From the IMG/VR virus record IMGVR_UViG_3300020182_002848, positions 1 through 55,312 of that record: 55,312 nt of DNA. One strand, written 5' to 3'. Made by a program: the position numbers and the translations under genes. The notes below the pieces were generated by a model. It ran no database searches. It worked only from the letters and a program-made list of their open reading frames with translations, and was not told the DNA's origin. This stretch comes from a virus (taxonomy: Duplodnaviria; Caudoviricetes). Of this stretch, positions 22,833 to 29,748 are shown piece after piece (the stretch's first letter is position 1; every line of letters begins with the position of its first letter).

Positions 22833-23651
22833 ATGGCACATTGTGTAGTAAGTTTAAGTGGTGGAATGGATAGCAGCACCCTATTGTTAAGAGCTATCGA
22901 AGAGTATGATACAGTAACTGGTATCTCATTTGACTATGGTCAAAAACACAAAGTAGAGCTAGAAAGAGCTCAATCATTAATTGATTACCTTGCAAGTAAA
23001 GGTCACAAAGTAAATTATCGTCAAATTAAACTAGATGGATTAGTAGATTTACTAGATTCTGCATTAGTAGAAGGTGGAGATGATGTACCTGAAGGACATT
23101 ATGAACAAGATAATATGAAAGAAACTGTTGTTCCTAACAGAAACAAAATGTTTGCTTCTATTACTCAAGCAGTAGCTTTATCTATAGCAAATAAAAAAGA
23201 AGATGTTTGTGATATTGCTTTAGGAATTCATGCTGGTGATCATGCTGTTTATCCTGATTGTAGACAAGAATTTAGAGATGCAGATGATGCAGCTTTTAGA
23301 ATGGGAAATTGGGATGCTGATAGAGTAGGTTACTTTACTCCTTATTTAAATACTGATAAATTTGGTATTTTACAAGATGGAGAAAAATTATGTGAATCGT
23401 TAGGAATTGATTTTAACGAAGTATATAAAAGAACAAATACCTCTTATAAACCAATGAAAGTTTACAGCAGACCTGAAACAAATGCTTGGGAATGGTATAG
23501 TGATTATAAATCAGCTTCATCAGTAGAACGTATTGAGGCTTTTATTAAATTAGGTAGACCTGATCCTGTTGGATATGCTGATGAAACAGGTGTAGTTAGT
23601 TACCAAGTTGCAAAAGCTCATGTTGAGAAAGTTCTTGCTGAATACGTATAG
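22833..23651 (+). CDS. queC: 7-cyano-7-deazaguanine synthase
   Basis: 'SLSGGMDS' PP-loop, 'FDYGQKH', 'VPNRN', 'YPDCR'. The C-terminal Zn cysteines are replaced by Ser. Confidence 0.9.
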   Translation: MAHCVVSLSGGMDSSTLLLRAIEEYDTVTGISFDYGQKHKVELERAQSLIDYLASKGHKVNYRQIKLDGLVDLLDSALVEGGDDVPEGHYEQDNMKETVVPNRNKMFASITQAVALSIANKKEDVCDIALGIHAGDHAVYPDCRQEFRDADDAAFRMGNWDADRVGYFTPYLNTDKFGILQDGEKLCESLGIDFNEVYKRTNTSYKPMKVYSRPETNAWEWYSDYKSASSVERIEAFIKLGRPDPVGYADETGVVSYQVAKAHVEKVLAEYV

Positions 23652-23679
23652 ATACATATAAATATTTAATAATACAGTA

Positions 23680-23826
23680 ATGACAACAAATCAACAATCA
23701 AACAACGGACAAACCCAAGTTAATAGTGCTAGGGAAACGTTTAATTCAAAGGTATCTCGACTAAGTATGTTAGGGAAATCTAAAAAAGTTGCCTGGGATA
23801 GTTTTAGAAGAAACAGGTCAATTTAA
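23680..23826 (+). CDS. Small basic protein (48 aa, not in ORF track)
   Basis: MTTNQQSNNGQTQVNSARETFNSKVSRLSMLGKSKKVAWDSFRRNRSI; downstream of an ATACGTATA motif at 23642. Confidence 0.5.
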   Translation: MTTNQQSNNGQTQVNSARETFNSKVSRLSMLGKSKKVAWDSFRRNRSI

Positions 23827-23831
23827 ATTAT

Positions 23832-23922
23832 AGAGAGACAGTAAAGCTGATTAAATTGAGATTATGGTAAAGGTTAACCACTCATTAACGCAGTAACCTT
23901 GAAAGACCCGAAATGTCTCTCT
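23832..23922 (+). ncRNA. Candidate structured RNA with pseudoknot, family unassigned
   Basis: 9-bp closing stem AGAGAGACA/TGTCTCTCT; interrupted inner stem; loop AAGGTTA complementary to downstream TAACCTT; fills the gap up to the tRNA. Confidence 0.6.
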
Positions 23923-23927
23923 TAAAA

Positions 23928-24000
23928 TGTCCTGTGGTGTAATTGGTAACACGTCTGTTTTTGGTACAGAAGAGTATAGGTTCGAGACCTGTCGGGACAA
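23928..24000 (+). tRNA. tRNA-Gln(UUG), CCA not encoded
   Basis: Acceptor TGTCCTG/CGGGACA; D arm GTGT-AATTGGTA-ACAC; anticodon stem TCTGT/ACAGA with loop TTTTGGT (TTG at 23961-23963); T arm with GGTTCGAGACC. Confidence 0.93.
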
Positions 24001-24011
24001 CAAAAAGTTAT

Positions 24012-24248
24012 ATGAAAAAATTTATAGAATTTTCTCTAATTTGGTACAGCCAACAAATGGCAATTCCCTTTTGGGTTGTAGGTCATGTCCACCTTAGTAT
24101 AAATACCTATAAAGATATTCATGAAATAATTACTAGCTTAGGTTTAAACCTTCTAGTAGCAATTGGGTTTATAATAGATTATAAAAAAACAACAAAAAGT
24201 TATGAAAAAACAAAAACTACCAGACGCAAGAAAACACCAACAAATTAG
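24012..24248 (+). CDS. Small membrane protein (start corrected to lie after the tRNA)
   Basis: ATG at 24012 preceded by AAAAGTTAT; two hydrophobic segments. Confidence 0.55.
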   Translation: MKKFIEFSLIWYSQQMAIPFWVVGHVHLSINTYKDIHEIITSLGLNLLVAIGFIIDYKKTTKSYEKTKTTRRKKTPTN

Positions 24249-24366
24249 CTTTATCAAATCAGGAATCCGTATTTTAGGGTACGGAGCTTTATGGTATAGC
24301 TTGGATATTGCAGTTATTTTACTTATATTGAGTGAAATAGTAGGAATAGGAGAAGAATTAGTATAA
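24202..24366 (+). CDS. Small membrane protein (54 aa, not in ORF track)
   Basis: MKKQKLPDARKHQQISFIKSGIRILGYGALWYSLDIAVILLILSEIVGIGEELV; AAAAGTT before the ATG. Confidence 0.65.
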   Translation: MKKQKLPDARKHQQISFIKSGIRILGYGALWYSLDIAVILLILSEIVGIGEELV

Positions 24367-24386
24367 ATAAATTTAAATCAAAAATA

Positions 24387-24635
24387 ATGAAAACAATCCT
24401 TTATTTTACCGCTTCATGGTGTGGTCCATGTAAAGCATTAGCACCTAGAATGGAAAAACTAGCAAGTCAAATTAATTATAGAAAAATTGATGTTGACTCA
24501 AATCAAGATATGTCTATGAAATATGGAGTTCGAAATGTACCCTCTTTAGTATTAGTAGATGAAAATGGGACAGAATTAAATAGGATGGTTGGAGTACAAC
24601 CAGATCAAGCAATCTTAAATTTTTATAATGGGTAA
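24387..24635 (+). CDS. Thioredoxin
   Basis: 'FTASWCGPCK', 'VRNVPSL'. Confidence 0.9.
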   Translation: MKTILYFTASWCGPCKALAPRMEKLASQINYRKIDVDSNQDMSMKYGVRNVPSLVLVDENGTELNRMVGVQPDQAILNFYNG

Positions 24636-25092
24636 ATATCAATCAAGTAAAGTATTTGACGGTTTTAGTACAGTGTTTCGTCAATGGAGAGCAGAAAGTA
24701 CACACTGTAGATTTGTACACGGTTATGGAATTTCATTCAAAGTATATTTTGAAGGGGAATTAGATGACAGAAATTGGGTTTGGGATTTTGGAGGTATGAA
24801 ACGCGCTAAAACTCTAATTGATGGTAAACAACCAAAAGCTTGGATGGATTATATGTTTGATCATACAATGATTATAGCAGAAGATGATCCATGGATAGAA
24901 GCATTTAGACAAATGGATGAAGCAGAAGTTGCTCAAGTAAGAATCATACCAGCTACTGGCGCTGAGAAATTCTCAGAATATATTTATAATAAGTTAAATG
25001 AATTTGTAAAGACTGAAACTGATAATAGGGTTAGAGTTACTAAAGTTAAATTCATGGAACATGGTAAAAATGCAGCCTATTACTGCGAATAA
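24628..25092 (+). CDS. queD: 6-carboxytetrahydropterin synthase
   Basis: 'HCRFVHGY', 'WVWDFG', 'FDHT', 'GAEKF', 'EH...A'. Confidence 0.85.
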   Translation: MGKYQSSKVFDGFSTVFRQWRAESTHCRFVHGYGISFKVYFEGELDDRNWVWDFGGMKRAKTLIDGKQPKAWMDYMFDHTMIIAEDDPWIEAFRQMDEAEVAQVRIIPATGAEKFSEYIYNKLNEFVKTETDNRVRVTKVKFMEHGKNAAYYCE

Positions 25093-25135
25093 TAAGTTAT
25101 TAGTGAATGAAAAACCACTTAAAAAAATTAACAAT

Positions 25136-25921
25136 ATGCACAAACAATTGAAACGTATTGAGGATTACGATAAAAACCTCCCAATTGTAGAAATATATAC
25201 TGCAGTTCAATCTGAAGGCTCTAGAGCAGGATATCCAACAGTAGTAATTAGAACAACAGGGTGTACCCACAGATGTTATTTTGGTGAAGGGGGATGGTGT
25301 GATAGTTGGTATACAAGCATCCATCCAGAAAAAGGACATTTTAATTTTAAAGACATTATTCAAGCATATAAGGATAATCCTCATATTAAAGAGATGATGT
25401 TAACAGGAGGATCTCCTACTATGCATCCGGCATTAGTAAACGAATTAACACATTTTGCACATGAAAACAATATCTTTATTACTATTGAAACTGAGGGATC
25501 TCATTTTCTTCCTACCGATTATCCTATTAATTTGCTTAGCATTAGTCCTAAGTTTAGTAATAGTATCCCCGTTGTTGGTGTTGAAACTCCTCAAGGATCC
25601 ATTACCGACGAAAGAATGGTAAAACGTCATAATAAGTTTAGACTTAATTATGAAGCTATTTCACAATCAATTTCATACCATTCAGATTATCATATTAAAC
25701 CTGTATGGGATGGTAAGGATGAAGGTTCATTAGAAGAAATTCTTAATTTTATTAAAATTATGGATGTACCCCAAGATAAAGTATGGTTTATGCCTGCTGG
25801 GGATTCAAGAGAGGGTTTATTTAAATCTTATCCTTTAGTATTTGATTGGGTTAGAGATAATGGTTATAGAATGACTTGGAGACCACATATTATTGCTTTC
25901 GAAGATCAGCGAGAAGTATAG
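25136..25921 (+). CDS. queE: 7-carboxy-7-deazaguanine synthase (radical SAM)
   Basis: 'EIYTAVQSEG..AG.P.V.IRT.GC...C...WCDS', 'LTGGSP', 'IETEG', 'SISPK'. Start may be GTG at 25103. Confidence 0.9.
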   Translation: MHKQLKRIEDYDKNLPIVEIYTAVQSEGSRAGYPTVVIRTTGCTHRCYFGEGGWCDSWYTSIHPEKGHFNFKDIIQAYKDNPHIKEMMLTGGSPTMHPALVNELTHFAHENNIFITIETEGSHFLPTDYPINLLSISPKFSNSIPVVGVETPQGSITDERMVKRHNKFRLNYEAISQSISYHSDYHIKPVWDGKDEGSLEEILNFIKIMDVPQDKVWFMPAGDSREGLFKSYPLVFDWVRDNGYRMTWRPHIIAFEDQREV

Positions 25922-26061
25922 TGGATAAGCAAGAAGCCCTTCGTATATTAGAGGAAATAGAAGAGAACATCAATGTCTGTTGTGCTATAACAATGGAACC
26001 AGATGAAGTATTAGTATTAGTAGATAAATTAAAAAGTTATATAAATGGAGAACAAACGTAG
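25921..26061 (+). CDS. Small hypothetical protein (GTG start) overlapping a promoter motif
   Basis: Fills the queE-folE gap. Confidence 0.45.
   Translation: MDKQEALRILEEIEENINVCCAITMEPDEVLVLVDKLKSYINGEQT
25922..25949 (+). promoter_or_regulatory. TGG-N17-CGTATATT motif upstream of folE
   Basis: Exact consensus and spacing. Confidence 0.6.
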
Positions 26062-26740
26062 AAAAGTTCACGAAGAATTAGAAGTAGTAAAAGTAGGTTA
26101 TGCAAACGGGGTTGCCGAAGGATTTCCCTTTACAGATAAAGAAAAATTAAAAATGATTGATAAAGCAGAAAAAGCTTATGGTAAGTTTTTAGATGCTTTA
26201 AAATGTGATTGGAGAGATGATCCCAATTCAATGGAAACACCTCGACGAGTAGCTAAAGCTTATGTGAATGATTTATGGGCTGGTAGATATACAGCAATGT
26301 CCCCTATAACATCCTTTCCTTCGGATGGGTATGATGGAATCGTTATTGAAAGAAACATCCCTCTTACCTCAATGTGTTCACACCACCACCAAACAATTGG
26401 AGGTGTGGTACACATTGGTTATATTGCAGGAGAAGGTGGTCAAGTAATTGGATTATCTAAATTAAATAGAATTGTAGAATTATTTGGTCGTAGAGGAGCA
26501 ATACAAGAACAATTAACATCAGCTATCCATAATGCTGTAGATAAAATTACAGCAGGGAATAAAGGTGTTATTGTTACTATAGTAGGTACTCATAATTGTG
26601 TATCTTGTAGAGGTGTTAAACATCAAGGTGCAGCAATGGTTACAACTAAGGCATCAGGTGTATTTAGAGAAAATGATAATTTATCTCGTAAAGAGTTTTT
26701 TGATAGTTTAAAAATTAATAACGGAGGACATAATATATAA
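26045..26740 (+). CDS. folE: GTP cyclohydrolase I
   Basis: 'ETPRRVAK', 'SMCSHH', 'GLSKLNR', 'IQEQLT', 'HNCVSCRG'. Confidence 0.95.
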   Translation: MENKRRKVHEELEVVKVGYANGVAEGFPFTDKEKLKMIDKAEKAYGKFLDALKCDWRDDPNSMETPRRVAKAYVNDLWAGRYTAMSPITSFPSDGYDGIVIERNIPLTSMCSHHHQTIGGVVHIGYIAGEGGQVIGLSKLNRIVELFGRRGAIQEQLTSAIHNAVDKITAGNKGVIVTIVGTHNCVSCRGVKHQGAAMVTTKASGVFRENDNLSRKEFFDSLKINNGGHNI

Positions 26741-26745
26741 GAGAT

Positions 26746-27198
26746 ATGGCATTAAAAGCAGACAATAAAATATATTTATGTTGGGCGGACATTAATGACG
26801 CAGTTGATAATTTATGTAATAAAATTAGACACGATCAACCTAATATAGATTCTATTCATGGTATTGCTAGAGGAGGACTAATCCCAGCAGTATTAATATC
26901 GCATAAATTAGGTTTACCTTGGACGGATGTTATATTACCTAATACTTTAGTAGTAGATGACATATGTGATTCAGGAGCAACATTAGAAAAAGCCCCTGGA
27001 GTTTGGACAGCAGTATTACATTATAAACCCCACACATCATGTTTTCAACCTAGTATATGGTCTGAAATACATGAAGGGGATGAATGGTTAATTTATCCTT
27101 GGGAAACCAAAGATTCCAAACCTATTCAAGATTATTTAAAACCTGGAGCTAAAGAATGGAGAGATAAAGCAGATGAATATTATAAATCAAATAAATAA
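26746..27198 (+). CDS. Purine phosphoribosyltransferase (Gpt-like)
   Basis: 'GIARGGLIPA', PRPP loop 'LVVDDICDSGAT', 'W.IYPWE'. Confidence 0.85.
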   Translation: MALKADNKIYLCWADINDAVDNLCNKIRHDQPNIDSIHGIARGGLIPAVLISHKLGLPWTDVILPNTLVVDDICDSGATLEKAPGVWTAVLHYKPHTSCFQPSIWSEIHEGDEWLIYPWETKDSKPIQDYLKPGAKEWRDKADEYYKSNK

Positions 27199-27200
27199 AT

Positions 27201-27398
27201 ATGGAATATTGGCAAATTAAAACTCAAAACGAATTTGAGAATGAAAGAGGTAGGATACAAAAAACAACTGAATTATATTTAGTGGTAGCAGTATCAGCAA
27301 CTGATGCAGAAGCTAAGATGTACAAACATAATGAAGGTATGTCTAATTTTAGAGTTGTAGAAGTAAAGAAAACTAAATTTTTAGAAGTAATAAGCTAA
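27201..27398 (+). CDS. DUF4494-like small protein
   Basis: 'QKTTELYLVVAVSATDAEAK' resembles the Bacteroidota DUF4494 pattern KKVTE.YLVDA.SFTEAE. Confidence 0.55.
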   Translation: MEYWQIKTQNEFENERGRIQKTTELYLVVAVSATDAEAKMYKHNEGMSNFRVVEVKKTKFLEVIS

Positions 27399-27940
27399 TG
27401 GGAAAACAATTAAATTTTGGGTTTAATGACCCCGTAAACAAAGCAGTAGATGTGCCTTTTGTTAACGAAGTAGAAACATTTAATGGCACATTCGGAAAAC
27501 CAAATAATTATGAACCAACAATACCAGAAAAAAAGGAGTGGGAATTCGTATACGACTTTGTACTTGAAGAATTGGAAGAATATAGACAGGCTTGCGAAAA
27601 CGGAGACATCGTGGAAGTTTTGGATGCTTTGTGTGATATTGCTTATGTTTCCCTTGGGAACGGTACTATGTTACACGGTCTTAAAGGTAAGATATGGCCC
27701 GCGTATCAAGAAGTACAAGGAAGCAATATGTCGAAGTCTTGTAGCACTAAAGAGGAAGCCATGGAGACTGTCACCCTCCGCTCTAAAGAACAAGCTGAGC
27801 CATGTCACTTTGAACAGATCGAAGACCGATTCGTAGTATATAGAACACGTGATCGTAAAGTAATGAAGTCTATTAATTACTATAGACCAGATTTGAAACA
27901 ATTCTTTACACAAGAAGAATTAAAGAAAAAATATCTGTAA
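27398..27940 (+). CDS. MazG-like (all-alpha) NTP pyrophosphohydrolase
   Basis: 'EELEEY...D..EVLDALCDIAYV..G', 'EVQGSNMSK', 'KVMKS'. Confidence 0.85.
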   Translation: MGKQLNFGFNDPVNKAVDVPFVNEVETFNGTFGKPNNYEPTIPEKKEWEFVYDFVLEELEEYRQACENGDIVEVLDALCDIAYVSLGNGTMLHGLKGKIWPAYQEVQGSNMSKSCSTKEEAMETVTLRSKEQAEPCHFEQIEDRFVVYRTRDRKVMKSINYYRPDLKQFFTQEELKKKYL

Positions 27941-27947
27941 AAAACTT

Positions 27948-27975
27948 AGGCTCCCGTAGGGAGCCTTTGTATATT
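27948..27975 (+). promoter_or_regulatory. Hairpin/terminator superimposed on a promoter variant (AGG-N17-TGTATATT)
   Basis: AGGCTCCC-GTA-GGGAGCCT stem occupies the 17-nt spacer. Confidence 0.65.
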
Positions 27976-27996
27976 CACCCAAATAAAAGTTATATA

Positions 27997-29748
27997 ATGT
28001 ATAAAAAGTGTTATCAAGGTAAAAAATTAGGAGATAATTATTTTGAAATGCATCTATGGGAAGAAGATGGTGGTCATCAAATAGTACCCTATAGAAATGT
28101 AGTATACCAGGAGTGTACTGAAGAAGAACATACACATAAGGGGTTAAATGGTGAATTCCTAAAACCTATATCTAAGTGGTTTTATTCTAAAAACCCTGAT
28201 TATAGTGCTAAAAATACTCCTAATTTACATTTTCATGATATGAAACCCCACCAAAAGTTTTTAGTTGAGCGTTATGGTGTAAATGATGTTCCTTCTAAGG
28301 GACATAGAGAAGTTTTTTTTGATATTGAGTGTGAAATAGGAGGAGCATTAACTGAAGAATATATTGAAGATGCTCCTATGCCCATTACTTCTATTGCTTG
28401 GTGGGACAAACAAAAAGACTATTGGTCTATTCTTATTTTAGATAAAAAAAGTCAATTAGCACACACTAAAACAGGCAAAAATAAAAATAAAGAAATTATC
28501 CCTTGTACTACAGAAAATGAATTATTAGCTAAGTTTGTTGAAGCAATAAGAGAAATGGATCCTGATATTTTAGTAGGATACAATTCAGATTATTTTGATA
28601 TACCTTATTTATATTACAGAATGTGTAGAACCATAGGTAAAGATTGGGCTGATCATTTATCTCCTATTGGTAAAGTAGTTTCTAAGAAAAACAACAAATA
28701 CTTCTTTAAACAAAACCAATATGTAGATATTGTAGGTATTGAATCTTTAGATTACATTCGTTTACATAAAAAATATAGTTGGAAAGATGAACCTAGTTGG
28801 AAATTAGATGCAATTGGAGCCAAATATGTAGGTATGAATAAAGTTGAATATGAAGGAAACCTAGATCAATTATTTGAAACAGATATCCATAAATTCATTC
28901 AGTATAACTTTGTTGATGTTGAAATCTTACAAAAATTAGATGAAAAATTACAATATTTAGCTTTAACTAAAAATTTATCTCATAAGGGAAAACATAATTA
29001 TAGTGAAGTATATGCTAATAGTATATCCCAAGATGGTGCTATTTCAGCCTATTTACTCTCCCAAGACATAGTACCACCCCCAAAAGAACCATTCCCCCAA
29101 AAGAAAGATAGTTATGCAGGAGGGTATCTTTTTTGCCCTAAAGCAGGGTTATATAAGTATATGTTTGATGAAGATTTAACTTCGCTATATCCATCTATAA
29201 TAATGTCTATAAACATAGGTAAGGAAACATTTGTGGGGCGTATTGTAGATGCTGATGACCGTAATAATAGACTGGGTCTTAACGATTTAAAAGAACGTGA
29301 TCCTGAAGAAGAATTACTAGTTGAAAATAAAAAACGACAACAAACTAGTGTAAATGTTGGTAGATTAATAGCTATGATTGAACAAAATAACTTGGCAGTA
29401 GCAGCTAATGGTTCAATGTTTAGAACAGATAAAGAATCAGTTTTATCTACTATTCTAAAGAAATGGTTTGAAGAACGAGTTGTTTATAAAAACCGCATGA
29501 AAAAGGCTTATAAGGCAGGAGATAAGGAATTAGGTGAATATAACTATTTAATGCAATACACAATGAAAATTCTACTTAACAGTTTATATGGGGCTACAGC
29601 ATTACCTTCATTTAGATATGGTATGAACTTTCAAACCTTAAGTGAAGCAATCACCTTAAGTGGACACAGAATAATACAAGAATCGGCTTTATGTGCAAAC
29701 CGCCATATGAATAAAGTTATGCGTGAAGAAATAAAATTAGAAATATGA
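27997..29748 (+). CDS. Family-B DNA polymerase, N-terminal part (exonuclease + motifs A and B)
   Basis: 'FFDIEC', 'GYNSDYFDIPY', 'YNFVDV', 'DLTSLYPSI', 'KILLNSLYG', 'ITLSG'; ends before motif C. Confidence 0.9.
   Translation: MYKKCYQGKKLGDNYFEMHLWEEDGGHQIVPYRNVVYQECTEEEHTHKGLNGEFLKPISKWFYSKNPDYSAKNTPNLHFHDMKPHQKFLVERYGVNDVPSKGHREVFFDIECEIGGALTEEYIEDAPMPITSIAWWDKQKDYWSILILDKKSQLAHTKTGKNKNKEIIPCTTENELLAKFVEAIREMDPDILVGYNSDYFDIPYLYYRMCRTIGKDWADHLSPIGKVVSKKNNKYFFKQNQYVDIVGIESLDYIRLHKKYSWKDEPSWKLDAIGAKYVGMNKVEYEGNLDQLFETDIHKFIQYNFVDVEILQKLDEKLQYLALTKNLSHKGKHNYSEVYANSISQDGAISAYLLSQDIVPPPKEPFPQKKDSYAGGYLFCPKAGLYKYMFDEDLTSLYPSIIMSINIGKETFVGRIVDADDRNNRLGLNDLKERDPEEELLVENKKRQQTSVNVGRLIAMIEQNNLAVAANGSMFRTDKESVLSTILKKWFEERVVYKNRMKKAYKAGDKELGEYNYLMQYTMKILLNSLYGATALPSFRYGMNFQTLSEAITLSGHRIIQESALCANRHMNKVMREEIKLEI

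What the first reader, a model, noticed from the sequence alone, without database searches (positions are those of the whole stretch)
23832..23922. Unassigned pseudoknotted RNA 5 nt upstream of tRNA-Gln inside the que cluster
Seen: P1 AGAGAGACA(23832-40)/TGTCTCTCT(23914-22) encloses an interrupted stem: CTG/CAG, TTAA/TTAA, TGAG/CTCA, TGGT/ACCA. Its loop AAGGTTA (23870-76) is perfectly complementary to TAACCTT (23894-900) just 3' of the stem, with purine-rich joiners GTAAAG and GAAAGACCCGAAA. This topology (bent hairpin whose loop pairs with the 3' joiner) recalls c-di-GMP-II-type pseudoknot folds, but I cannot match the consensus nucleotides. It has no U-tract, so it is not a simple terminator. 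Inference: a riboswitch-like aptamer, a ribozyme processing the tRNA leader, or an sRNA released by RNase P cleavage at the tRNA 5' end.
Basis: partly seen in the sequence, partly recalled or inferred. Interest (0 to 1): 0.75.

Follow-up and report, generated by a model that had tools for sequence, protein, structure and literature searches.

The report

Summary
It is not a chance fold. The same RNA occurs in many phage contigs. On 96 aligned copies, 96.0% of pair cells are standard pairs against 77.1% in shuffles. The covariation score is 0.546 against 0.176, reached by 0 of 500 shuffles. This covers the closing stem P1, the base of P2 and the loop-to-joiner helix.

No Rfam 15 family matches it.

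The que genes are incidental. The RNA travels with phage tRNA arrays, on the tRNA strand. A tRNA starts within 10 nt downstream in 54 of 92 loci and ends within 10 nt upstream in 31 of 92. It is single copy in 5 of 5 large phage records.

The model confirms copies in cultured phages of Klebsiella, Pectobacterium, Escherichia, Cellulophaga, Rhizobium, Vibrio and Flavobacterium. A Bacillus phage copy rests on reading only. Chance-level pattern hits aside, only 1 of 120 bacterial stretches held it.

A wider set includes circularly permuted forms, forms without P1 and forms with an extra hairpin.

Best reading: a stand-alone stable RNA cut out of tRNA precursors. A riboswitch is unlikely, and a ribozyme or a self-assembling RNA stays open.

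The parts
23832..23840 (+). P1, 5' strand (closing stem). The last base, A23840, may instead be the first base of the conserved AGU joiner.
   Evidence: Sequence. The MFE keeps it. 9 of 9 family P1 pairs change on both sides.
23841..23846 (+). Joiner J1/2 (GUAAAG). The family consensus is AGUGAAG followed by an invariant G before P2.
   Evidence: Column counts on A2: A 87/92, G 88/91, U 85/90, and G 94/94 just before P2.
23847..23893 (+). P2, an irregular hairpin. Base CUG/CAG is 23847-49 with 23891-93. Then come UUAA/UUAA, UGAG/CUCA and UGGU/ACCA, and an 8-nt loop at 23869-76. The middle varies in length and shape among relatives.
   Evidence: Base of P2: CG 92, UA 89 / AU 3, GC 77 / AU 10 / CG 5.
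23870..23876 (+). Loop strand of the loop-joiner helix (AAGGUUA).
   Evidence: Complementary to 23894-23900. RNAalifold picks this helix on its own. Covariation.
23894..23900 (+). Joiner strand of the loop-joiner helix (UAACCUU). It follows P2 with no spacer.
23901..23913 (+). Joiner J3/1 (GAAAGACCCGAAA), the most conserved stretch of the main type. The window has one base more than the consensus before P1.
   Evidence: partly fixed by the search pattern.
23914..23922 (+). P1, 3' strand.
23923..23927 (+). A/U spacer (UAAAA) between P1 and the tRNA. Presumed to become the 3' tail after RNase P cleavage (inferred).
   Evidence: The distance to the next tRNA is 2-8 nt in the 54 of 92 loci with a tRNA within 10 nt.
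23928..24001 (+). tRNA-Gln (anticodon UUG), on the same strand.
   Evidence: ARAGORN. Rfam tRNA, 61.4 bits.
23680..23826 (+). Small ORF (48 aa) that ends 5 nt before the RNA. Context only.
   Evidence: RNA-library contigs run from this ORF through the RNA into the tRNA.
22833..23651 (+). QueC-like gene. Context only: the site behind it is a variable tRNA/ncRNA spot in this phage group.
   Evidence: Pfam QueC, 2.9e-37. Downstream content differs among the 80 QueC loci.

Best explanation
The 91-nt element is one copy of a single-copy gene for a small, stand-alone structured RNA. It belongs to a large phage-specific family that no library lists.

Mechanism proposed:
- It is transcribed on the same strand as, and together with, the neighbouring tRNA genes.
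- It is freed by the enzymes that mature those tRNAs. RNase P cleavage at the 5' end of the downstream tRNA would leave a tail of about 5 nt. Where a tRNA lies upstream, 3' processing of that tRNA would set its 5' end.
- Where no tRNA follows, some copies have a U-run right behind P1.
- P1 ties the ends together.
- The working part is the conserved core: the base of P2, the loop-joiner helix and the two purine-rich joiners. This part survives circular permutation, loss of P1 and insertion of extra hairpins.
- The RNA then acts as a free particle on something common to very different bacteria, or to their phages. It does not switch a downstream gene.

Shown here: the structure, the family, the tRNA-array context, the strand, the single copy and the restriction to phages.

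Inferred: co-transcription, release by RNase P and RNase Z, stability, and action in trans. The partner and the cellular effect are unknown.
For: Structure:
- 96.0% of pair cells are standard pairs against 77.1% in shuffles. Covariation is 0.546 against 0.176, with 0 of 500 shuffles as high, and slid controls score at most 0.21.
- Wobble pairs are frequent on the + strand, for example U-G in 28 sequences at the innermost P1 pair. They would be A-C on the other strand, so the + strand RNA is what is conserved.

Context:
- In 92 loci every tRNA called within 3 kb is on the element's strand.
- A tRNA starts within 10 nt downstream in 54 of 92 loci and ends within 10 nt upstream in 31 of 92. In the same loci 142 of 368 tRNA-tRNA gaps are 10 nt or less, so the RNA is packed like one more unit of the array.
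- The flanking tRNAs are of many kinds.
- Some copies with no tRNA downstream have a U-run directly after P1: L076, L102, L117, L131. The Bacillus phage copy is followed by a hairpin and a U-run.

Copy number and range:
- One match in each of 5 of 5 large phage records searched whole, 3 of them at least 96% complete. One match in the window.
- Phage-specific: 94 of 119 pattern hits in viral contigs have the complementary loop strand upstream, against 12 of 121 in bacterial and archaeal genomes, which is the chance level. Only one of those, a 577-nt contig, is a real copy.
- The model confirms copies in phages of Klebsiella (70.6 bits), Pectobacterium (50.8 and 40.8), Cellulophaga (52.7), Rhizobium (37.2), Escherichia (35.3), Vibrio (26.6) and Flavobacterium (21.9, partial).

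RNA libraries: contigs of marine metatranscriptomes from 4 studies cover the element. In three of them, one contig runs from the upstream ORF through the element into the tRNA; in the fourth, a 98-nt contig covers its 5' part.
Against: - No transcript ends were seen. The RNA-library data are assembled contigs, which cannot show starts, ends or strand, and DNA carry-over cannot be excluded.
- Release by RNase P and RNase Z is inferred from position only. By my reading, about 28 of 92 loci have no tRNA within 10 nt on either side.
- A core this conserved, with about 30 near-invariant bases, optional stems and natural circular permutation, is more typical of ribozymes and ligand-binding RNAs than of protein-binding small RNAs. 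This recollection comes from no call.
- No partner was found. No protein family recurs in more than 18 of 92 neighbourhoods.
- The single-copy count used the model of the standard form, so permuted copies could have been missed.
Confidence: 0.6

Rival explanations
1. It is a new class of self-cleaving or otherwise catalytic RNA. The conserved junction of P2, the loop-joiner helix and the joiners would be an active site. Cleavage would separate the RNA from its neighbours or cut another RNA.
For: The features below are those I recall as typical of hammerhead and twister ribozymes; that comparison comes from no call.
- Natural circular permutation. Of the 24 loci that the script sorted as permuted, 18 have P2's 5' strand lying downstream with a duplex of -7 kcal/mol or better.
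- Optional parts: a hairpin inserted inside the joiner, and forms without P1.
- A small, highly conserved core with variable peripheral stems.
- Phage context next to tRNAs, as for the HDV-like theta ribozymes. I saw only the search listing and the start of the abstract of PMC10879173.
Against: - No match to any ribozyme family in Rfam, in the window or in 17 other loci.
- The topology differs from hatchet, whose P1 is a hairpin with the cut at its 5' end (passages of PMC6561176).
- It also differs from HDV-like ribozymes, whose 5' strand pairs internally (recalled).
- It is single copy per genome, while up to 22 tRNAs were called within 3 kb of a copy. It therefore cannot be the general processing device of the array.
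- Some copies have no tRNA nearby: Cellulophaga phi19:1 and Bacillus Eldridge.
Confidence: 0.13
2. It is a self-assembling RNA. The loop-joiner helix would form between molecules, not within one, so that copies join head to tail into a ring or a larger particle. This would be a small counterpart of the phage RNAs ROOL and GOLLD.
For: - In 24 of 94 members, the window included, the loop strand fills an 8-nt hairpin loop with 0-2 nt to spare, at the tip of a P2 of 9-17 predicted pairs. Its partner follows the base of the same P2 with no spacer.
- In the L085 group, P2 is a nearly continuous 11-bp helix that itself shows compensatory changes. The tip hairpin hangs on a 1-nt link on one strand. 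By my geometric reasoning, the tip cannot reach its own base there unless P2 melts.
- Covariation cannot tell pairing within a molecule from pairing between copies.
- Precedent: the ROOL J6/8-L8 and GOLLD L20-J13/15 pairings were found by covariation and proved to be bridges between chains in cryo-EM. Both RNAs are phage RNAs near tRNA islands (passages of PMC12286853).
- GOLLD lies in the same array as the element in L159.
Against: - The steric argument is reasoning, not a model.
- In the window's own subtype, the middle of P2 is A/U-rich and may be an open internal loop, which would give enough slack.
- In 69 of 94 members the loop has longer links, mostly about 6 nt on each side. In some, the links are 11-16 nt on short stems. 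There a fold within one molecule looks possible.
- A switch between P2 and the loop-joiner helix would explain the same data.
- No data on size or stoichiometry exist.
Confidence: 0.2
3. It is a riboswitch-like aptamer for preQ0, preQ1, a cyclic dinucleotide or another ligand. It would control the downstream tRNA or the que genes, or serve as a free aptamer that soaks up a small molecule.
For: - The core is conserved and junction-centred, with variable outer stems, as in aptamers.
- In the window it lies inside a 7-deazaguanine gene cluster.
- A cultured relative, Flavobacterium phage immuto, also has it behind QueC.
Against: - No preQ1, c-di-GMP or other riboswitch model matches at E <= 10.
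- The usual downstream neighbour is a tRNA, and many copies lie between two tRNAs.
- There is no terminator or ribosome-binding-site platform. The promoter and terminator scan gave nothing at the element.
- Only 13 of 81 QueC-anchored sources hold it, and the closest QueC relatives lack it.
- Permuted forms, with their ends inside P2, cannot work as a 5' leader switch in the usual way.
- A free aptamer or 'sponge' role is not excluded by any of this.
Confidence: 0.05
4. It is a degenerate or unusual tRNA, or a tRNA-like RNA of the kind annotated in the T4 and T5 tRNA clusters.
For: - It occupies the place of a tRNA in arrays. In related QueC loci a tRNA-Ala sits where the element is in the window: L009 and L020 have tRNA-Ala followed 2 nt later by tRNA-Gln.
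- It has a closing stem of 7-10 bp.
- T4 and T5 carry annotated stable RNAs of unknown function in their tRNA clusters, some called tRNA-like in the records.
Against: - ARAGORN and the Rfam tRNA model call the neighbours but not the element.
- It has no T-arm or anticodon arm, and no CCA or discriminator pattern after P1.
- The family model finds nothing in the T4 or T5 tRNA regions with filters off; the best scores are 13.8 and 13.2 bits, with E of 0.41 and 0.77.
Confidence: 0.02

Closest known systems
GOLLD and ROOL RNAs (Rfam RF02032 and the ROOL family)
   Same: They are phage and prophage RNAs of unknown function that lie near tRNA islands (passages of PMC5737381, and PMC12286853). GOLLD sits in the same array as the element in L159. 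Both have a covarying hairpin-loop to joiner pairing, which in their case joins different chains.
   Different: They are 400-800 nt and ornate, while this RNA is 90-135 nt. No sequence or model match exists. Whether this RNA forms multimers is untested.
Stable RNAs of the T4 and T5 tRNA clusters (T4 rnaC and rnaD; T5 rnaI, rnaIII, rnaIV, rna1, rna2 and others)
   Same: They are small RNAs annotated as stable and of unknown function. They are encoded within 1-6 nt of tRNA genes on the same strand (record annotation). The presumed maturation from tRNA precursors is the same (recalled for T4).
   Different: They are not homologous. The family model finds nothing in either region with filters off. 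By the T4 sequence read, rnaC carries a tRNA-like T-arm and rnaD ends in CCA; the element has neither.
HDV-like theta ribozymes of gut phages
   Same: They are small pseudoknotted RNAs placed directly beside phage tRNAs (listing and start of the abstract of PMC10879173).
   Different: They lie downstream of the tRNA and cut at their own 5' end (recalled). The element is most often upstream of a tRNA, its 5' and 3' ends pair with each other, and no HDV-type model matches. Catalysis is untested.
c-di-GMP-II riboswitch
   Same: In both, a hairpin loop pairs with a strand near the base of the structure (recalled for c-di-GMP-II).
   Different: No model match at E <= 10. The element has no downstream ORF or expression platform in most loci, and it is found in phages, not in bacterial 5' UTRs.

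Membership tests
Any Rfam 15 family (including c-di-GMP-I/II, preQ1-I/II/III, twister, twister-sister, pistol, hatchet, hammerhead, HDV-type, RNase P, tmRNA, YrlA, GOLLD, ROOL) | Match to the family's covariance model | tested here: not met
   The whole window at the gathering score gives only tRNA. Window 23650-24250 at E <= 10 gives nothing on the element. Nine loci with members at E <= 5 gave one overlap, a chance snoRNA match in L110 at E 0.6. Eight loci with variant and permuted members at E <= 5 gave nothing.
tRNA | Cloverleaf recognised by ARAGORN or by the Rfam tRNA model | tested here: not met
   Only 23928-24001 is called in the window. In the arrays the neighbours are called and the element is not.
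Riboswitch (cis-acting) | An aptamer in the 5' leader of a regulated gene, with an expression platform | tested here: not met
   A tRNA follows within 10 nt in 54 of 92 loci. No terminator-like site lies at the element. Permuted forms exist.
Riboswitch or aptamer | Specific ligand binding | not testable with these tools
   Needs in-line probing or calorimetry.
Self-cleaving ribozyme | Site-specific self-cleavage | not testable with these tools
   Needs in vitro transcription assays. The RNA-library contigs cannot show ends.
T4 rnaC/rnaD and T5 stable RNAs | Homology in sequence and structure | tested here: not met
   Model R1 with filters off gave a best of 13.8 bits in the T4 region and 13.2 bits in the T5 region, neither on an annotated RNA.
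Pseudoknotted RNA (a hairpin loop paired with a strand outside the hairpin) | Two helices whose strands interleave, both supported by covariation | tested here: met
   The base of P2 and the loop-joiner helix cross each other, and both have pairs that change on both sides. Whether the second helix forms within one molecule was not testable.
Homo-oligomeric phage RNAs (ROOL/GOLLD kind) | Assembly into defined multimers through contacts between chains | not testable with these tools
   There is only a steric argument from the loop and linker lengths and a precedent.

The most novel reading that the evidence does not exclude
The family would be a new functional class of phage RNA whose conserved core does chemistry or assembly on its own.

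One form of this reading: it is a small self-assembling RNA whose loop-joiner helix links copies head to tail into rings, a miniature of the ROOL and GOLLD cages. The other form: it is a new ribozyme class with natural circular permutations. Either way, it would be a single-copy gene kept by phages of at least six bacterial genera in three phyla by the model, and of a Bacillus phage by reading only. One carrier infects E. coli K-12.
Probability: 0.3. Interest if true: 0.9.

Novelty: new variant of a known kind. Interest (0 to 1): 0.8.

Why it matters
Phage tRNA arrays are known to carry RNAs nobody understands: the T4 and T5 stable RNAs, GOLLD and ROOL. This is a further, compact and very widespread one.

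- **Conservation.** About 30 near-invariant bases are held across phages of Proteobacteria and Bacteroidota, and by reading of one Bacillus phage. That points to a target or an activity common to very different hosts.
- **Modularity.** Circular permutation, an optional P1 and inserted hairpins define a minimal core, as for ribozymes and aptamers.
- **Tractability.** Copies exist in cultured phages, including one isolated on E. coli K-12 MG1655. Function, ends, partners and assembly can therefore be tested directly.
- **Annotation.** The site is unannotated in most records and lies under a 'hypothetical protein' call in some.

A model for this family would clean up phage genome annotation.

Tried and rejected
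**Known families.** Four Rfam scans gave no family for the element or its variants.

**T4 and T5.** I suspected the T4 species 1/2 RNAs and the T5 stable RNAs. The model finds nothing there.

**Hatchet ribozyme.** In the passages of PMC6561176 that I read, P1 is a hairpin and the cut lies at its 5' end, which is a different layout.

**Viral single-guide RNAs.** The passages of the 2026 preprint 10.64898/2026.06.01.729453 that I searched mention neither tRNA nor a pseudoknot. I judged it unrelated.

**Resemblance to 23S rRNA.** The joiner's 9-mer stands at E. coli 23S positions 2057-2065, and a 12-13-mer at about 668-680. I treat this as chance and composition. The same holds for a recalled likeness to RNase P conserved regions, which no model supports.

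**E. coli genomes.** BLAST of the mogra copy at E <= 10 found no match.

**Recurrent neighbouring proteins.** The largest cluster covers 18 of 92 loci, so none is universal. I did not name these clusters with Pfam.

**Promoters and terminators.** The scan found 7 promoter-like sites against 7.3 expected, and none of either kind bears on the element.

**Automatic sorting of standard and permuted forms.** The first try was too crude. The second had a coding slip and was discarded. I used together with the display. The 4-letter signature is weak, so I count only the loci where the downstream strand also forms a good duplex.

**RNA-library contigs.** They show presence and bridging only. Parts without cover, and the places where contigs stop, are not used.

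**Literature.**
- A full-text search for the joiner as a string found 21 papers. The 10 listed are unrelated primers or genes.
- Keyword searches listed no paper describing this RNA.
- Fremin et al. 2023 (PMC10690425) report 10,006 candidate viral RNAs. The passages I read do not mention this one. Its supplementary tables, which I could not see, may list it.

Full report
**What is in the window**

A 9-bp closing stem (P1) encloses an irregular hairpin (P2). The 8-nt loop of P2 holds AAGGUUA, which is complementary to UAACCUU. That partner strand follows P2 directly, and the joiner GAAAGACCCGAAA follows it.

tRNA-Gln(UUG) starts 5 nt after P1. A QueC-like gene and a 48-codon ORF lie upstream. 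queD-, queE- and folE-like genes and a family B polymerase lie downstream, all on the + strand.

The window is a viral contig estimated at 34% complete. Taken alone, the fold is only modestly better than chance: z -2.54, with 3 of 200 shuffles as good.

**It is a family**

I anchored on QueC and fetched 80 related viral loci. BLAST with the element hit seven of them. Reading them showed the same architecture with different stem sequences.

Of these, 94 have the complementary loop strand upstream.

I aligned 79 distinct copies. I had dropped 18 of 97 beforehand: some were chance matches, others were real copies with an unusual 5' motif. RNAalifold chose P1 and the loop-joiner helix by itself.

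A covariance model built on that alignment found 13 copies in the 81 QueC-anchored sources. These included divergent ones that the pattern could not have found. It found 96 copies in the 97 sources I gave it.

On those 96 copies:
- 96.0% of pair cells are standard pairs, against 77.1% in shuffles.
- The covariation score is 0.546 against 0.176. No shuffle of 500 reaches it, and slid structures reach at most 0.21.
- All 9 P1 pairs change on both sides, as do 2 of 3 pairs at the base of P2 and 2 of 6 pairs of the loop-joiner helix.
- The pair next to P2 in the loop-joiner helix takes three Watson-Crick forms: AU 43, UA 40, CG 5.

The alignment was fitted to this structure, and the pattern fixes part of the joiner. 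Even so, the stems vary freely, and the divergent copies keep the pairs.

**No known family**

Rfam 15 gives only tRNA in the window and nothing on the element at E <= 10. It gives no family in 17 further loci that hold standard, variant or permuted copies.

The T4 and T5 tRNA clusters carry annotated stable RNAs, but the model does not match them. Hatchet ribozymes have a different layout. I found no paper that describes this RNA. The supplements of a catalogue of 10,006 viral RNA candidates were not visible to me.

**Where it lives**

The que genes are not the common theme; tRNA arrays are.

- In 92 loci every tRNA within 3 kb is on the element's strand.
- A tRNA begins within 10 nt after P1 in 54 of 92 loci and ends within 10 nt before P1 in 31 of 92.
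- In the same loci 142 of 368 tRNA-tRNA gaps are 10 nt or less.
- The neighbouring tRNAs are of many kinds.
- By my reading, about 28 of 92 loci have no tRNA beside the element. In some of these a U-run follows P1.

The element is single copy in each of 5 large phage records searched whole and in the window.

It is gained and lost as a unit. The closest QueC relatives lack both the tRNA and the element. One RNA-library contig skips exactly 23827-23924.

It is a phage RNA.

Copies confirmed by the model in cultured phages:
- Klebsiella phage RaK2 and its relatives, directly after a tRNA-Gly.
- Pectobacterium phage PM2 (T4-like) and My1 (T5-like).
- Escherichia phage mogra, isolated on K-12 MG1655, between tRNA-Met and tRNA-Arg.
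- Cellulophaga phage phi19:1, with no tRNA nearby.
- Rhizobium phage RHEph12 and Vibrio phage Va1.
- Flavobacterium phage immuto, a partial match. The copy again lies two genes behind QueC and in front of a tRNA.

Bacillus phage Eldridge gave no model hit. By reading, it holds a permuted copy behind a ribonucleotide reductase gene, followed by a terminator-like hairpin. BLAST also points to Erwinia and Proteus phages, which I did not check with the model.

**A wider, modular family**

Together with the earlier viral loci that hold this loop pattern, they make 134 distinct sequence contexts. Of these, 41 lack the partner strand and look like chance matches in ORFs, and 93 have it.

Among the 93, the 3' joiner varies much more than in the first set. 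New forms also appear:
- A hairpin inserted inside the joiner.
- Circularly permuted RNAs, in which P1 is a capped hairpin and the ends lie in the outer part of P2.
- Permuted RNAs with no P1 at all.

The script sorted 24 of the 93 as permuted. In 18 of those 24, P2's 5' strand lies downstream and forms a duplex of -7 kcal/mol or better with the 3' strand.

What survives all this is the base of P2, the loop-joiner helix, one G on either side, and an A-rich stretch followed by ACC or ACA in the joiner.

**How it most likely works**

The gene is single copy, co-oriented with tRNA genes and packed like one of them. It is not tied to any ORF. Where no tRNA follows, it sometimes ends in a U-run.

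I therefore read it as a stand-alone RNA made from the tRNA precursor. RNase P at the next tRNA would set its 3' end. Processing of the previous tRNA, or a promoter, would set its 5' end. P1 closes the molecule, and the conserved core does the work in trans.

These steps are inferred. The only RNA-level data are metatranscriptome contigs from four studies that cover the element. In three of them a contig bridges the upstream ORF, the element and the tRNA. They show neither ends nor strand. The partner is unknown, and no neighbouring protein recurs.

**Rivals**

- **Ribozyme.** This fits the permutations, the optional stems and the tight core. But there is one copy against arrays of up to 22 tRNAs called near it. 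Some copies also have no tRNA nearby. It is thus not the array's processing device.
- **Cis riboswitch.** This fits poorly.
- **tRNA-like RNA.** This is not supported.
- **Self-assembly.** This is the more interesting rival and concerns the loop-joiner helix. In 24 of 94 copies, the window's included, the loop strand fills an 8-nt loop on a P2 of 9-17 pairs, and its partner abuts the base of the same P2. In one subgroup P2 is a nearly continuous 11-bp helix with its own compensatory changes, and the tip hangs on a single nucleotide. By geometry, the tip can hardly reach its own base there. Pairing between copies would solve this. For ROOL and GOLLD, which are also phage RNAs near tRNA islands, such covarying loop-joiner pairs were shown by cryo-EM to bridge chains. 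In the other 69 copies the links are longer, and folding within one molecule looks possible. The point stays open.

**Verdict**

Its interpretation is partly right.

The object is a new, widespread and modular family of small pseudoknotted phage RNAs of unknown function. I file it as a new variant of a known kind, the unexplained RNAs of phage tRNA arrays.

There is a real chance that it will prove to be a new catalytic or self-assembling RNA. It can be tested in E. coli K-12.

Noticed in passing
L115 685-791; L076 3709-3814; L061 3793-3868; also L189, L197, L088, L090 (spacers next to the element): A second conserved, unassigned element of about 55-105 nt lies between tRNAs and the pseudoknot RNA in several arrays. 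It has a G/C-rich hairpin core shared across loci. No Rfam match was found in L115.
   Followed up: partly
L104 and L199, the 118- and 101-nt spacers downstream of the element: A third shared spacer sequence lies between the element and the next tRNA. It is alike in two unrelated loci and unassigned.
   Followed up: no
L084, L116 and L158 (85-nt spacer upstream of the element); L087 (113-nt spacer): These stretches have a clear T-arm-like hairpin that ARAGORN did not call. They are probably unusual or degenerate tRNAs.
   Followed up: no
L159 758-1169: A full-length GOLLD RNA (257 bits, gathering score 150) lies in the same tRNA array as a copy of the element at L159 1959-2083.
   Followed up: partly
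window 23827-23924; loci L003-L008: The element is present or absent as a unit. One RNA-library contig joins 23826 to 25 with 5 other letters between (read: 23826 to 23925). The QueC relatives at 92-96% identity have neither a tRNA nor the element behind QueC.
   Followed up: partly
window 23999-24020 and 24188-24210: The same A-rich sequence context precedes the ATG of two small ORFs (about 27 and 54 codons). It looks like a shared translation-start context without a Shine-Dalgarno sequence.
   Followed up: no
window 22833-29748: A 7-deazaguanine gene set (QueC, queD-like PTPS, radical SAM queE-like, GTP cyclohydrolase I) lies next to a phosphoribosyltransferase-domain protein, a MazG-like pyrophosphohydrolase and a family B DNA polymerase. 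This is consistent with modified DNA bases in this phage.
   Followed up: partly
L330 (E. coli K-12 rrlH), 23S positions 2057-2065 and about 668-680: The most conserved joiner of the RNA shares an exact 9-mer and a 12-13-mer with two universally conserved parts of 23S rRNA. I treat this as chance and composition, but a mimicry role was not tested.
   Followed up: partly
L329 1563-1662 (Cellulophaga phage phi19:1): A weak second match (17.3 bits, E 0.025) lies directly behind the confirmed copy. It may be a decayed tandem duplicate.
   Followed up: no
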